Of a stretch of 64,000 nt of DNA, positions 7,101-22,879 are shown in pieces. The stretch's first letter is position 1. Every line of letters begins with the position of its first letter. The notes beneath the pieces were generated by a model. The model made no database searches, had not been told where the DNA came from, and saw only the letters and a program-made list of their open reading frames with translations. The DNA comes from Heterodontus francisci (taxonomy: Eukaryota): NCBI RefSeq assembly GCF_036365525.1, contig NC_090389.1, positions 78,828,179-78,892,178 of the forward strand. Reading direction: 5' to 3'. The translations under genes were made by a program, and so were the position numbers.

Positions 7101-7348
7101 AAATCCAAGTTGTACAGTACAGTGTCAACAGAGCCCTACACAATTCAACATGGCACCCTTTTCAAACTCTACTACTGAACCATCCCTTGTAGTTTTTTGT
7201 AGATATATTCCTCAAAATTTACTCTTACTTAGAAACTGGCAGACATATTTTGTACCAGAATATATGAGGAGTTACCAACTTGGAGTTCTACCCAATATAT
7301 TTGTGCATCTCCCAGCTGCCATGGAAATATATTAAACCTCAACTATTG

Positions 7349-8005
7349 GAGAGAGAAGCAGAGTTAGGGTTTCAGGTCAGTGACCTTTCAGCAGAACTGG
7401 CAAAGGTTAGAAATGTAATAGGTTTTAAGCAAATAAAGCGAGGGTGGGGCAAAAGATAAATAGAAAGCAATGAAGGTGAATAAGGTAAAAAAAAACAAAC
7501 GAAAATCCTGTCAGAGAGAAGAGCAGAACTTCTTCAAAGTAGGGATTCCTGGAAGGGAAGTGGCAGTGAATTAAACACTAAAATAAAAGCAAAATACTGC
7601 AGATGCTGGAAATCTGAAATAAAAACAGAAAATGCTGGAAATACTCAGCAGGTCTGGCACCATTTGTGCAGAGAGAAGCAGAGTTAACGTTTCAGGTCCA
7701 TGACTTTTAATTCACTGCCATTTCTCTTCCAGGAATGCCTACCTTGAAGTTCTGCTCTTCTCTCCGATGGGATTTTTGTTTGCCTCTTTTACCTTGTTAA
7801 CCTCATTGCTCTCTATTAATCTTTTACCCCACTCCTTTATTTGCTTAAAACCTATTACATTTCTAACCTTTGCCAGTTCTGATGAAAGGTCACTGACCTG
7901 AAACGTTAACTCTGCTTCTCTCTCAAGATGCTGCCTGACCTGCTGAGTGTTTCCAGCATTTTTTGTTTTTATTTCAGATTTCCAGCATCTGCAGTATTTT
8001 GCTTT
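7349..8005. mobile_element. Non-autonomous Penelope-derived / retrozyme-like element: ~1.1 monomers on minus (7349-7704) plus an inverted ~0.95 monomer on plus (7707-8005)
   Basis: gagagaagcagagtt recurs at 7351 and 7671 (320-bp period); 7707-8005 is the reverse complement of the same unit; its 3' part matches the terminal repeat of the GIY-YIG fragment at 22160-22325; flanked by direct repeat TATTAAACCTCAACT (7330-7344, 8006-8020). Confidence 0.8.
7875..7911 (+). ncRNA. Minimal type I hammerhead ribozyme motif
   Basis: AGTT-CTGATGA-A-AGGTC act GACCT-GAAA-CGTT-AACT: conserved CUGAUGA and GAAA boxes, 5-bp helix II, helix I AGTT/AACT, palindromic ACGT in place of helix III, as established for Penelope minimal HHRs. 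Confidence 0.75.
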
Positions 8006-8039
8006 TATTAAACCTCAACTTTAAACCTTACCCAAATCA

Positions 8040-11000
8040 ATGACTCTCTGAAGACCACCATCATTAACAACGAGCTCAGTAGACTCAATGTGGACATTGC
8101 AGTACTTCAAGAGACACGCCTCCCTGCGAGCGGATCTCTGAGAGCAAGACTACACCTACTGGCAGGGTAGGGATCCTGAAGAACCAAGGGACAGCATGGA
8201 GTGGGCTTCACCAACAGAAACTCTTTGCTCAGCATGATAGAGCCACCTTCAAATGGCTCGGAACGCATACTGTTCATCCGACTGCTCACCACCTCTGGCA
8301 CAGTACACATACTCAGCATCCATGCTCCAACACTCTGCTCCTCACATCAAGTCAAAGACCAGTTGTATGAGGAACTCCATAATATCATTAGTAGCATTCC
8401 AAATACCGAACATTTGTTCCTGCTGGGGGACTTTAACGCCAGGGTTGGGGCCGACCATGATTCATGGCCATCCTGCCTTGGGCGCTATGACATTGGAAGG
8501 ATGAATGAGAATGGACAGAGACTGCTGGAGTTGTGTACCTATCACAACCTCTGCATCACCAACTCGTTCTTTCATACTTAACCCTGTCACCAGGTTTCAT
8601 GGAGACACCCAAGATCACGTCGTTGGCACCAGCTGGACCTCATCGTCACAAGGCGAGCCCAAATAAACAGTGTCCAAATCACACGCAGCTTTCACAGTGC
8701 GGACTGCGACACCGACCACTCCCTGGTGTGCAGCAAAGTTAGACTCAAACCAAAGAAGCTGCATCACTCCAAGCAGAAGAGCTGCCCGCACATCAACACT
8801 AACAGAATTTCTTATCCACAGCTGTTACATAAGTTTTTAATTTCACTTGACAAAGCCCTTCAAAGCACTCCTACAGGGGATGCAGAGACAAAGTGGGCCC
8901 ACACCAGAGATGCCATCTATGACTCAGCAATGACCACCTTTGGCAAACCGTGAGAAGCAGAATGCAGACTGGTTTCAATCTCACTTTGAAGAGCTGGAAC
9001 CTGTCATAGCCGCTAAGCGCAATGCACTGTTGAACTACAAGAAAGCCCCCAGCGAGTTAACATCCGTAGCACTTAAAGTAGCCAGAAGCGCTGCACAAAG
9101 AACAGACAGGCGCTGCGCAAATGACTACTACCAACACCAATGCAGTCGTATTCAGCTGGTCTCCAACACCGGAAACATCAGAGGAATGTATGATGGCATT
9201 AAGAGAGCTTTTGGGCCAACCATCAAGAAGATCGCCCCCCTCAAATCTAAATCAGGGGACATAATCACTGACCAACGCAAGCAAATGGACCGCTGGGTGA
9301 AGTACTATCTAGAACTGTACTCCAGGGAAAATGTTGTCAATGATACCGCCCTCAATGCAGCCCAGTCTCTGCCAGTCATGGATGAGCTGGACGAACAGCC
9401 AACAAAATCGGAACTCAGTGATGCCATTGATTCTCTAGCCAGTGGAAAAGCCCCTGGGAAGGACAGCATTACCCCTGAAATAATCAAGAGTGCCAAGCCT
9501 GCTATACTCTCAGCACTCCATGAACTCCATTAAAGGGCGGCACAGTGGCGCAGTGGTTAGCACTGCAGCCTCACAGCTCCAGGGACCCGGGTTCGATTCT
9601 GGGTACTGCCTGTGTGGAGTTTGCAAGTTCTCCCTGTGTCTGCGTGGGTTTTCTCCGGATGCTCCGGTTTCCTCCCACAAGCCAAAAGACTTGCAGGTTG
9701 GTAGGTAAATTGACCATTATAAATTGTCACTAGTATAGGTAGGTGGTAGGGAAATATAGGAACAGGTGGCGATGTTTGGTAGGAATATGGGATTAGTGTA
9801 GGATTAGTATAAATGGGTGGTTGATGGTCGGCACAGACTCGGTGGGCCGAAGGGCCTGTTTCAGTGCTGTATCTCTAATCTAATCTAAACTGCTTTGCCT
9901 GTGCTGGGATGAGGGAGCAGTACCACAGGACATGCGCGATGCCAATATCATCACCCTCTATAAGAACAAGGGTGACCACGGTGACTGCAACAATTACTGT
10001 GGAATCTCCCTGCTCAGCATAGTGGGGAAAGTCTTCGCTCGAGTCATTTTAAACAGACTCCTGAAGCATGTCTACCCTGAGGCACAGTGTGGCTTTCGAG
10101 CAGAGAGATCCACCATTGACATGCTGTTCTCCCTTCGCCAGCTACAGGAGAAATGCTGCGAACAACAGATGCCCCTCTACGTTGCTTTCATTGATCTCAC
10201 CAAAGCCTTTGACCTCGTCAGCAGACGTGGTCTATTCAGACTACTAGAAAAGATCGGATGTCCATCAAAGCTACTAAGTATCATCACCTCATTCCATGAC
10301 AATATGAAAGGCACAATTCAGCATAGCGGCATCTCATCAGACCCCTTTCCTATCCTGAGTGGCGTGAAACAGGGCTGTGTTCTCGCACCTACACTGTTTG
10401 GGATTTTCTTCTCCCTGCTGCTCTCACATGCGTTCAAGTCTTCAGAAGAAGGAATTTTTCTCCACACGAGATCAGATGGCAGGTTGTTCAACCTTGCCCG
10501 TCTAAAGGCGAAGACCAAAGTATAGAAAGTCCTCATCAGGGAACTCCTCTTTGCTGACGATGCTGCATTAACATCCCACACTGAAGACTATCTGCAGAGA
10601 CTCATCGACAGGATTGCGGCTGCCTGCAACGAATTTGGCCTAACCATCAGCCTCAAGAAAATGAACATCATGGGACAGGACATCAGAAATGCTCCATCCA
10701 TCAATATCGGCGACCACGCTCTGGAAGTGGTTCCAGAGTTCACCTACCTAGGCTCAACTATTACCAGTAACCTGTCACTTGTTGCAGAAATCAACAAGCG
10801 CATGGGAAAGGCTTCCACTGCTATGTCCAGAATGGCCAAGAGTGTGGGAAAATGGCACACTGACACGGAACACAAAAGTCCGAGTGTTTCAAGCCTTTGC
10901 CCTCAGTACCTTGCTCTACGGCAGCGAGGCCCGGACAGTGTATGTCAGCCAAGAGCGACGTCTCAATACATTCCATCTTCACTGCCTCCGGAAAATCCTT

Positions 11001-11537
11001 GGCATCAGGTGGCAGGACCGTATCTCCAACGCAGATGTCCTCGAGGTGGCCAACATCTCCAACATATACACCCTACTGAGCCAGCGAGTGCTTGAGATGG
11101 CTTGGCCATCCCCATGGAAGATGACAGGATCCCCAAGGACACATTGTACAGCGAGCTGGTCACTGGTATCAGACCCACTGGCTGTCCACGTCTCCGCTTT
11201 AAAAACGTCTGCAAACGCGACATGAAGTCCTGTGACATTGATCACAAGTCGTGGGAGTCAGTTGCCAGCGATCGCCAGAGCTGGCGGACAGCCATAAAGG
11301 CGGGGCTAAAGAGTGGTGAGTCCAAGAGACCTTGCAGTTGGCAGGAAAAAAGTGCAAGGAGAGAGCCAACTGTGTAACAGCCCCGACAAACAATTTTATC
11401 TGCAGCACCTGTGGAAGAGTCTATCACTCTAGAATTGGCCTTTCTAGCCACTCCAGGCGCTGCTCCACAAACCACTGACCACCTCCAGGCACTTACCCAT
11501 TGTCTCTCGAGACAAGGAGGCCAAAGAAGAAGAAGAA
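8040..11537 (+). mobile_element. 5'-truncated RTE-clade LINE (AP endonuclease + RT), frameshifted, interrupted by a SINE
   Basis: IHAPT..LLGDFNARVG..NENGQRLLELC (EN); KNKGD..GISLLS, QCGFR, FIDLTKAFD, GVKQGCVLAPTLF, LFADD (RT); C-terminal CxxC..H..C; (GAA)n tail 11526-11537. Confidence 0.93.
9535..9887 (+). mobile_element. tRNA-derived V-SINE (HE1-like) inserted in the RTE
   Basis: A box TGGCGCAGTGG, B box GGTTCGATTC, V-domain tgtgtggagtttgca..ttctccctgtgtctgcgtgggttt..ctccggtttcctcccac, CR1-like tail gggccgaagggcctgtttc.gtgctgta, (CTAAT)n; the uninterrupted site catgaactgctttg is seen at 25746. Confidence 0.93.
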
Positions 11538-21620: not shown

Positions 21621-21639
21621 CAGGGTAAAAAATAAAATT

Positions 21640-22325
21640 AGTATACAGTATTCGCTGCTCACAATACAGTCTCCTCTACATTGGGGAGACCAATAGTTGA
21701 TTGGGTGACTGTTTTGCTGAACACCTCTGTTCAGTCCACAAATATGACCCTGACCTTCCATTCGCCTGCCATTTTAATTCTCCATCCTAGTCCCGCCTGA
21801 CCTCTCTATCCTCCGCCTCCTACACTGTTCCAATGAAGCTCAACTTAAGTTTGAGTAACAGCTCCTCATCTTTCAATTAGACGCTTTACAGCCTTCTGGA
21901 CTCCACATTGAGGTCAACAGTTTCAGATCACTGCACCCATTTTTTTTTTTGGAGAGCAGCTGTTAATGATTCTGTGATTCCCATTCTCACTTCCTCTAGA
22001 TGGGTCATTTGTTTCTTTTCTTGTCCCATTACCATCCCCTTTAGTCTTACACCATCATCCCTTTTGTCATTTATCTTTTGCCTTTCATCTTATTGCAGAC
22101 CTTCCCTTTTGTTCTTTCCTCCCCCCACCGCCCCCGCCACCTTCCCTGCCTCGGTACTTGCTTAAAATCTGTTGCCTCTCAATTTTTTCGGTTCTGTCGA
22201 AAGGTCATCGACCTAAAACATTAACTCCGTTTGTCTCACTACAGATGTTGCCTGACTTGCTGAGTATATTCAGCATTTCCTGTTTTAATTTCAGATTTCC
22301 AGCTTTTGTAAGTAGTTTGCTTTTG
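21640..22325 (+). mobile_element. Penelope-like element 3' fragment: GIY-YIG endonuclease remnant plus terminal repeat with a degenerate hammerhead
   Basis: Decayed IRCSQYSLLYIGET..LGDCFAEHLCSV..DPDLPFACHFNS; ctgtcgaaaggtcatcgacctaaaacattaact at ~22194-22226; tail ttcagatttccagc shared with 7970-7990. Confidence 0.8.
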
Positions 22326-22525
22326 TAAAAAAATAATTCATTGGTTTGGGATGTCCTGAGCTGGACATTGAGTCCATTCGGCCAAATGGACCAAAATGGT
22401 CATTCCTAGTCATGGACGGTGCTATATAAACGCAACTTTTCTATTTCCCTTCATCAGAAAGGTAAGTTCAATTTAAATTCCAACTTTGAAATAATCTGTT
22501 TTTATTTCCCTCAGATTTGCAGAGC

Positions 22526-22581
22526 ATGGATGCTAATGGAAATTCTGCAGAGATCGATGAAGGCCTTTACTCCCGACAACT
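22526..22581 (+). CDS. UBA7: Coding part of an E1 ubiquitin-like activating enzyme exon (exon 22515-22581), MDANGNSAEIDEGLYSRQL; probably UBA7
   Basis: Acceptor tttatttccctcAG at 22514, donor GTAAGT at 22582 splitting the Leu codon; IDEGLYSRQL is the UBA1/UBA7 motif; lies downstream of TRAIP on the same strand, as human UBA7 does. The sequence alone does not exclude a UBA1-like paralogue. Confidence 0.8.
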
Positions 22582-22879
22582 GTAAGTATATTTGGAAATA
22601 AAGCAAACTCCTGTATTTTAAAGAAATACACTGGCAGAAGGGGAAAGTGGTAGTAGAGGCGAGAAAGACACCAATCAAATTTACAGCTTCTTCATGGGAT
22701 GATCAAGACGGATCTCATCAGAGTTATCACTTCTAACTGTCAAAAGTTATCAATGGATTCCAATTAGGGCCAACAGTTTATGGTAACTGAATAAATCGAG
22801 TTACTATCTTTATTACATGGTCTTCTGGATTTTCACTAGTGCTTTCTGGTTGCATTCTGCAATTCTGCGATAGAAATCA

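What the first reader, a model, noticed from the sequence alone, without database searches (positions are those of the whole stretch)
7330..8020. Hammerhead-ribozyme retrozyme-like element: 320-nt permuted monomer plus inverted copy inside one TSD
Seen: a non-coding unit with 320-bp periodicity (7351 vs 7671) runs just over one monomer on the minus strand, starting and ending around the hammerhead. It is followed by an inverted near-full monomer with an intact core (7875-7911), all within a 15-19 bp direct repeat. A Penelope GIY-YIG remnant with a similar terminal repeat lies at 21640-22325. Known: Penelope-like elements and non-LTR retrozymes carry minimal type I hammerheads whose palindromic helix III is thought to act in dimers, and can give small circular RNAs. 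Inference: a shark non-autonomous ribozyme-bearing retroelement family, copied from a tandem or circular RNA by a Penelope RT. Whether this family is already catalogued cannot be told here.
Basis: partly seen in the sequence, partly recalled or inferred. Interest (0 to 1): 0.7.

Follow-up and report, generated by a model that had tools for sequence, protein, structure and literature searches.

The report
Mini Penelope copied round and round
This is a dead, shrunken insertion of a common Penelope-type jumping gene rather than a separate ribozyme family, but it and similar insertions carry the same one-off joint two to four times, which likely means the enzyme re-read a short loop-like RNA and may show how small circular-RNA repeats are born.

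Summary
The anatomy is real: a 15-bp target duplication encloses an inverted 1.13-unit arm and a forward 0.95-unit arm of a 320-nt unit, with one intact minimal hammerhead. The unit is not a family. It is the end repeat of an autonomous Neptune-type Penelope element (3,296-nt unit, 896-aa RT + GIY-YIG ORF) joined to the first 117 nt of that element. This joint gives 5 pattern hits against 2,622 for the parent, and its carriers are not one clade. Such minis are common (37 of 90 unselected copies) with mostly private joints. Twenty of 107 joint-bearing loci carry their joint 2-4 times inside one insertion, and 6 of 6 tested have no source locus. The template was therefore likely a short RNA re-read more than once, closed at the joint rather than at the ribozyme cut, and primed from both target strands. 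No circular RNA or cleavage was shown. New variant of a known kind; interest 0.5.

The parts
7330..7344 (+). Left copy of 15-bp target-site duplication
   Evidence: family D4, 100% identical to 8006-8020
7347..7708 (-). Inverted arm, 1.13 units: parent P3168-3296, P1-117, joint, P3093-3205 (P = position in the 3,296-nt parent unit)
   Evidence: 19 differences in 342 positions from the majority of the nearest copies
7362..7398 (-). Decayed hammerhead (A6 and the palindromic GU changed)
7456..7461 (-). ORF-to-3'UTR joint, first copy (P117 to P3093, 2-nt TT overlap)
7458..7575 (-). First 117 nt of the parent unit, with the start of the RT ORF (ATG at P30)
7576..7708 (-). 3' part of the pLTR with a half hammerhead cut off in stem II
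7706..7708 (.). Inversion point; TTT shared by both arms
   Evidence: sequence
7706..8009 (+). Forward arm, 0.95 unit: P1-117, joint, P3093-3290; its last bases TATT overlap the target duplication
   Evidence: 13 differences in 280 positions from nearest-copy majority
7735..7817 (+). Decayed start of the parent ORF (MPTLKFCSSL..., stop after 21 codons)
   Evidence: against the parent ORF
7815..7820 (+). ORF-to-3'UTR joint, second copy (same joint, locally mutated)
7875..7911 (+). Intact minimal type I hammerhead; predicted cut after 7907; A7875 corresponds to the parent's inferred capped start (P3154)
   Evidence: cleavage not tested
8006..8020 (+). Right copy of the target-site duplication
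21639..22324 (+). Separate, more distant Penelope remnant (end of GIY-YIG region and decayed pLTR); not part of the insertion

Best explanation
The insertion is a shrunken copy of an autonomous Neptune-type Penelope-like element, made of its hammerhead-bearing end repeat joined to the first 117 nt of its unit and present as two opposed arms inside one target duplication, and it was likely made in a single event in which the element's own RT re-read a short, loop-like RNA from both target strands. Shown: composition, parent, two copies of one joint, one target duplication, no 320-nt clade. Inferred: (1) a parent RNA that runs across the pLTR-ORF boundary (tandem or circular) leaves a short piece, here P3093 to P117; (2) the endonuclease nicks both target strands 15 bp apart and both ends prime RT; (3) RT passes from the 5' end of the piece to its 3' end, most likely by a jump guided by 1-3 matching bases (a ligated circle closed at the same point is the close alternative), and can do so repeatedly; (4) the two cDNAs join head to head through TTT. 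Ribozyme cleavage is not needed in this model. The locus is a dead end: a transcript through it is predicted to fold into a long hairpin that buries the only intact core.
For: Parent found: three tandem hits 3,296 nt apart, two complete units identical, 896-aa ORF with RT and GIY-YIG matches. 21 of the 29 other best hits run on into this ORF where the window's unit jumps. Minis are 37 of 90 unselected ATG-bearing loci, units 169-1,916 nt, median about 330. Recurrent joints (320, 334, 315 nt) are each rejected as one clade. Joint present 2-4 times in 20 of 107 joint-bearing loci: 6 in inverted arms, 14 direct, 7 of these beginning inside the ORF piece so that DNA-level duplication of a smaller precursor cannot make them. 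Upstream partial copy reaches beyond P3050 in 2 of 37 minis versus 22 of 38 long copies (p 9e-7). No second locus for 6 of 6 multi-joint loci tested (L031, L107, L110; L072, L209; L070). Overlap of at least 1 nt at 16 of 17 cleanly resolved unselected joints versus 48% expected; 0 of 38 distinct joints fit GT-AG. 58 of 65 3' ends fall in two windows about 35 nt apart, as for the two RT start sites and two-strand priming shown for an Anolis element (PMC11167929). An extra G before P3154 in 10 of 16 informative ends versus 2 of 41 controls, several at ORF joints, points to a cap and to RT jumping off RNA 5' ends. Joints at that start site are never doubled (0 of 16) although they keep two whole hammerheads.
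Against: No RNA evidence: only assembled contigs of runs guessed to be RNA were available and none spans this locus or shows a circle. Two loci (L135, L213) run past their joint into upstream UTR, so not every mini comes from a closed short template. Joints almost always leave the hammerhead whole (35 of 37, p 6e-4), which fits a ribozyme-dependent route equally well. The overlaps are A/T-rich (20 of 23 letters) and fit neither random joining nor simple cut-after-U or cut-at-YA models, so jump versus ligation is not settled. Unit number differs (1 versus 2) at paralogous copies of one insertion, so DNA-level change does occur. The 107-locus set is enriched by my searches; in the unselected set only 4 of 38 (plus L143 by eye) are multi-joint. 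Source searches were exact or near-exact patterns in one assembly. The minus arm here starts at P3205, 50 nt from the usual start window. Only 17 of 37 unselected joints could be resolved cleanly.
Confidence: 0.55

Rival explanations
1. Two-step retrozyme route. An RT switch or repair deletion first makes a genomic mini with two whole hammerheads about 320 nt apart; its transcript is cut at both (dimer fold in cis), ligated to a circle closed at the cut site, and rolled by Penelope RT. The window's insertion is a daughter whose mother is lost or not assembled.
For: 35 of 37 joints keep the hammerhead whole; the core is kept along the subfamily ladder with an A-U/G-U/G-C change at the stem II closing pair; microhomology suits a DNA- or cDNA-level deletion; circles were proposed for PLEs (PMC4209133) and shown for canonical retrozymes (PMC7229834); the three youngest 334-nt loci could be a small family.
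Against: 0 of 6 tested loci have a mother; under neutral drift about half of mothers should persist (inference). Start-site joints, which also have two whole hammerheads, are doubled in 0 of 16. Solo pLTR 5' ends pile up at P3154-58 (15 of 29 distinct loci) and none at the cut. Minimal PLE hammerheads cut poorly in vitro and uncut RNA is the main RT substrate in Anolis. The youngest subfamily has C at core position 4 yet gives many multi-joint minis.
Confidence: 0.27
2. DNA-level history: a full-length insertion lost its interior by deletion, and repeats or inverted arms were then copied or homogenised by unequal crossover or gene conversion.
For: Microhomology-mediated deletions of PLEs are described (PMC3846280); unit number varies at paralogous sites of the 337-nt insertion; local amplification is the model of the 2026 preprint.
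Against: Seven direct multi-joint loci start inside the ORF piece; six carry the joint in opposed arms; minis lack the long upstream copies of full-length insertions; breakpoints cluster at P57-213 in 32 of 37; the window's arms differ at 21 of 221 and 9 of 126 sites and share one variant only, so no recent conversion.
Confidence: 0.08
3. One reading: an independent, amplified 320-nt non-autonomous retrozyme family.
For: The same or near-same joint occurs at seven other loci on several contigs (L002, L003, L005, L007, L036, L114; variant L006).
Against: 5 hits versus 2,622; carriers range from identical to the youngest parent (L114) to old (window); one clade rejected, AU p 5e-61; both breakpoints are general hot spots used by other joints.
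Confidence: 0.05
4. Self-insertion: a solo pLTR jumped into the ORF start of an older copy.
For: PLEs are said to insert into or beside earlier copies (review PMC6765202).
Against: No ORF continues after the pLTR and one target duplication encloses the whole unit here and in many other minis, e.g. L002, L005, L114, L209, L224, L229, L235.
Confidence: 0.03

Closest known systems
Insertion units of endonuclease-bearing Penelope-like elements, Neptune type (Craig et al. 2021, PMC8557442; Arkhipova et al. 2013, PMC3846280)
   Same: pLTR with minimal hammerhead, partial tandem, adjacent inverted 5'-truncated copy, 30-40-nt optional tail, target duplication, RT then CX4CX2C then GIY-YIG in the parent.
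   Different: The repeated unit is a 320-nt ORF-start/pLTR fusion, and the same private joint is written in both arms; the passages read describe single internal deletions, not repeated ones.
Non-LTR retrozymes of animals (Cervera and de la Pena 2020, PMC7229834; Li, Clavereau, Pollet preprint 10.64898/2026.07.22.740005)
   Same: About 300-nt AT-rich unit with a type I hammerhead, non-coding, permuted, long target duplication, PLE origin; the preprint reports such repeats in one chondrichthyan, mean 363 bp. L031 (4 x 370 nt) and L239 (3 x 334 nt) would probably pass its tandem criterion.
   Different: Minimal rather than canonical hammerhead; no family amplified from a master; this locus has no two same-sense intact cores; no circular RNA shown; the preprint models local tandem growth of a pLTR, not de novo re-reading of an ORF-pLTR piece.
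Poseidon element of Anolis carolinensis in vitro (Frangieh et al. 2024, PMC11167929)
   Same: Two internal RT start sites, both target strands cut and extended, AT-rich target, uncut RNA as template, protein needs the first 172 nt of the ORF.
   Different: Poseidon clade with the ORF starting inside the hammerhead; repeated template re-reading was not reported in the parts read.
Non-autonomous Chlamys PLEs such as MRC1 and R2 SIDEs
   Same: Short, ORF-less derivatives moved in trans; MRC1 forms head-to-tail multicopy insertions.
   Different: Those are stable families from one founder; here each mini appears to be born anew from the parent of its time.

Membership tests
EN+ Penelope-like element derivative | Parent with single ORF encoding RT and GIY-YIG endonuclease | tested here: met
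   896-aa ORF; RVT_1 E 2e-05 and GIY-YIG E 1.5e-04, both just under Pfam's curated cut-offs
EN+ Penelope-like element derivative | pLTR from partial tandem, with hammerhead | tested here: met
EN+ Penelope-like element derivative | Adjacent inverted 5'-truncated copy and target duplication | tested here: met
   definition
EN+ Penelope-like element derivative | Optional 30-40-nt tail (two RT start sites) | tested here: met
   58 of 65 3' ends at P3251-62 or P3288-96; forward arm ends at P3290, minus arm is an exception at P3205
Neptune clade | CX2-5CxxC motif between RT and C-terminal GIY-YIG | tested here: met
   CNRRRCNTC in the ORF; definition; Nematis shares the motif
Neptune clade | RT phylogeny with reference clades | not tested
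   no reference set fetched; the preprint found only Neptune and Poseidon in vertebrates
Minimal type I hammerhead of PLEs | Core, extra base between positions 9 and 10.1, palindromic 15.2-16.2, covarying stem II | tested here: met
   definition; Rfam gives no hit
Minimal type I hammerhead of PLEs | Self-cleavage as a dimer | not testable with these tools
   predicted folds of monomer and dimer do not give the ribozyme fold
Non-LTR retrozyme | Two or more consecutive same-sense units with complete hammerheads | tested here: not met
   one intact core on the plus strand, none on the minus strand; met at other loci such as L031 and L239
Non-LTR retrozyme | Multi-copy family descended from one unit | tested here: not met
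Non-LTR retrozyme | 150-450-nt non-coding unit, long target duplication | tested here: met
   320 nt, 15 bp; definition
Non-LTR retrozyme | Expressed as circular RNA | tested here: inconclusive
   only contigs of runs guessed to be RNA

The most novel reading that the evidence does not exclude
Penelope RT, the sister of telomerase RT, has repeat-addition processivity: it re-reads a 170-500-nt protected piece of its own RNA by realigning on 1-3 bases, so that every insertion round throws off new hammerhead-bearing tandem units. These roughly one thousand private minis are the nursery from which animal non-LTR retrozymes and hammerhead satellites arise.
Probability: 0.25. Interest if true: 0.8.

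Novelty: new variant of a known kind. Interest (0 to 1): 0.5.

Why it matters
How Penelope-like elements make their partial tandems and inverted ends, whether they use circular RNA, and how retrozymes arise from them are open questions. A joint that exists at one locus only but is written two to four times there marks the template and shows it was read more than once. That gives a genomic handle, and an exact in vitro substrate, for testing circle versus template jump. The locus itself is an old, probably inert insertion.

Tried and rejected
Rfam scan of the window: no hit. Folding of the core: z -0.77, not the ribozyme fold; cofolded dimer also not, so folding gives no support either way. Splicing as the source of the joints: 0 of 38. 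The 21.6-kb remnant as parent: too distant. The 337-nt joint as a family: all five loci share flanks and target duplication, one insertion in a segmental duplication. Descent of the 320-mer from the 370-mer of L031 by a 50-nt deletion: considered, dropped because the 370 joint exists at one young locus and 320 carriers include old copies. L143 as a stop at the joint: it reuses the joint; L018 stays unclear. First microhomology callers failed on SNPs or returned nothing and were replaced, which kept 56 of 102 entries as clean. Simple nuclease models for the joints do not fit. Sequencing runs: 'goes back' joints P121-P3204 and P73-P3194 appear in contigs but can be genomic minis; nothing spans the locus. 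PDB search of the parent ORF: nothing significant. Earlier-notes look-up by sequence: nothing. Literature searches gave no paper on repeated private joints in PLE minis; Repbase and Dfam were not available, so cataloguing of the parent is unknown.

Full report
OBSERVATION. The element lies between two identical 15-mers at 7330-7344 and 8006-8020. Inside are a minus-strand arm (7347-7708) and a plus-strand arm (7706-8009) that share TTT at the inversion point. The minus arm has a 320-nt period (42-nt repeat, 86%), and the arms match at E 1e-75 and 1e-46. A minimal type I hammerhead is intact only in the plus arm (7875-7911, predicted cut after 7907); it is the single match of a loose core pattern in the window. 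Rfam gives 0 hits at gathering score. The minus arm's two hammerheads are dead: one has three core changes, the other is cut off in stem II.

THE PARENT. A DNA search of the own genome returned 30 loci, one being the window. In 21 of the other 29 the sequence runs on into an ORF where the window's unit jumps back to the end repeat. Three hits 3,296 nt apart led to a tandem array whose two complete units are identical and encode an 896-aa protein with RT and GIY-YIG matches just under Pfam's cut-offs and a CX4CX2C linker, the Neptune/Nematis mark (PMC8557442, passages). With P1 at the start of the forward arm, ATG is P30, the hammerhead core starts at P3158 and the cut follows P3186. The 320-mer is P3093-3296 plus P1-117. 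Exact patterns give 73,169 hits for the hammerhead's 3' half and 2,386 for the ATG region. The remnant at 21.6-22.3 kb is only 75-77% like the young parent.

NOT A FAMILY. The joint has 5 hits at up to 1 mismatch, one being the window; the unbroken parent has 2,622. On a tree of 193 pLTR pieces (163 columns, bootstrap not fully settled) the nine 320-joint rows from seven loci spread from the youngest subfamily (L114) to old ones; one clade is rejected on a 59-row subsample (AU p 5e-61). A gapped pattern for nearby joints gave 72 hits. The recurrent 334-nt (9 loci) and 315-nt (12 hits' loci, three of them one duplicated site) joints are also rejected as clades (p 5e-60 and 1e-6); the 337-nt joint is one insertion in a segmental duplication. 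A small family among the three youngest 334-nt loci is not excluded.

MINIS ARE COMMON. I took 90 of the first 100 listed ATG-region hits, all on the first 188 Mb of contig 1 (8 lay in loci already held, 2 were not fetched). Of the 90, 37 are minis, 28 full-length, 14 otherwise 3'-truncated and 11 run off the fetched stretch. Units are 169-1,916 nt, median about 330; the ORF side ends at P57-213 in 32 of 37. Extrapolated, that is about 1,000 minis among exact-match copies. Of 65 3' ends, 58 fall at P3251-62 or P3288-96, the two-site tail pattern explained in vitro for an Anolis element whose protein cuts and extends both target strands and uses uncut RNA (PMC11167929, parts 1-2 of 4).

A SHORT TEMPLATE READ MORE THAN ONCE. 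Among 107 joint-bearing loci (a set enriched by my searches), 20 carry their joint 2-4 times: 6 in opposed arms, the window included, and 14 in direct tandem, 7 of which begin inside the ORF piece and cannot have grown from a smaller precursor by DNA duplication. In the unselected set the count is 4 of 38, plus L143 by eye. L209 has two units on each arm in one 14-bp duplication. The upstream partial copy reaches beyond P3050 in 2 of 37 minis but 22 of 38 long copies. Two loci, L135 and L213, run past their joint and go against a closed template. For six multi-joint loci the joint was sought genome-wide and found at that locus only. Under neutral drift about half of source loci should still be present (inference), so this weighs against a mother-daughter route without excluding it.

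HOW THE JOINT IS MADE. Of 102 entries 56 were resolved cleanly; 0 of 38 distinct joints fit GT-AG on either strand; 16 of 17 unselected ones overlap by at least 1 nt against 48% expected, 8 of 17 by at least 2 nt against 20%. The overlaps are A/T-rich and fit no simple nuclease model. Solo pLTR copies start at P3154-58 in 15 of 29 distinct loci and none at the cut; an extra G precedes P3154 in 10 of 16 informative ends against 2 of 41 controls, two of the 32 ends being strands of one inverted joint. I read P3154, inside an initiator-like TCAGTT (motif recalled), as a capped start. Joints at this start are never doubled (0 of 16) and the upstream copy stops there in seven loci, whereas joints upstream of it are read through. 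Joints leave the hammerhead whole in 35 of 37, which fits both an RNA 5' end at or before the start and a need for the ribozyme.

THE RIBOZYME. Across five divergence bins the majority sequence of the motif changes only at core position 4, the variable position 7 and the stem II closing pair (A-U 37, G-U 52, G-C 98 of 193), so the fold was kept in the parent lineage. A strict core remains in 53 of 55 youngest and 5 of 20 oldest pieces, as expected of decay after insertion. The window's arms differ at 21 of 221 and 9 of 126 sites and each lies about 5% from the nearest copies. The whole element is predicted to fold at -377 kcal/mol with the core paired to the other arm, so it is unlikely to cut itself or yield a circle.

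RNA. The run search gave 22 rows, all assembled contigs, most only guessed to be RNA. Laying seven different runs in two calls showed nothing specific to this locus and no proof of circles.

WHAT IS KNOWN. Inverted pLTRs, tails and microhomology deletions: PMC8557442 and PMC3846280 (passages). Minimal hammerheads, weak dimer cleavage and the proposal of circular PLE templates: PMC4209133 (passages). Retrozyme definition: PMC7229834 (passages). PLE origin of animal retrozymes, with one chondrichthyan sampled: preprint 10.64898/2026.07.22.740005 (parts 1-3 of 5; supplements not seen and may list these arrays). Review passages on SIDEs and PLE promoters: PMC6765202. Six searches gave no paper on repeated private joints. 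Earlier scan notes describe deleted Penelope copies in other genomes and a capped start in this one; they are unchecked notes and not counted as support.

VERDICT. Observation confirmed; interpretation partly supported. The locus is a by-product of a Neptune-type element (about 0.9). A short template closed at the joint and re-read by RT is the best mechanism (0.55), ahead of the hammerhead-circle two-step route (0.27). New variant of a known kind, interest 0.5.

Noticed in passing
L067 (G000:C1:104036500-104046400) and L068: Tandem arrays of full-length parent; in L067 two complete 3,296-nt units are identical and carry an open 896-aa ORF, so the family is very young or active.
   Followed up: partly
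L031 3283-4797; L209 1017-2298; L239 1235-2348: Young retrozyme-like arrays: 4 x 370 nt, 2+2 x 336 nt inverted in one target duplication, 3 x 334 nt. Best candidates for cleavage and circle tests.
   Followed up: partly
long copies in L115-L204: In 22 of 38 long copies the upstream partial copy passes far beyond the inferred start site, so the parent template also spans the unit boundary (circle or tandem transcript).
   Followed up: partly
window 7706-7737 and parent P1-32: Pyrimidine tract plus CAG directly before the ATG looks like a 3' splice site; two more such sites lie in the pLTR downstream of the hammerhead. An intron could remove part of the ribozyme. Not tested.
   Followed up: no
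youngest subfamily, P3159: Core position 4 is C instead of U in the two youngest bins.
   Followed up: partly
L171, L176, L177: Insertions whose 3' end lies inside the ORF (P144, about P730, about P580) within a target duplication of 8-15 bp: RT can prime on ORF-ending RNA.
   Followed up: partly
L240-L244: One 337-nt mini in a segmental duplication with one unit at two sites and two units at three sites.
   Followed up: yes
window 8026-11225, also 24851-28059: Decayed LINE with AP-type endonuclease and RT pieces; RTE-like by recall. The first starts a few bases after the right target duplication.
   Followed up: partly
window 22515-22582: Short exon-like stretch whose translation recalls the N-terminus of ubiquitin-activating E1 enzymes (recalled, not confirmed by any search).
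   Followed up: no
window 28767-64000: About 35 kb of CT-rich microsatellite-like arrays.
   Followed up: no
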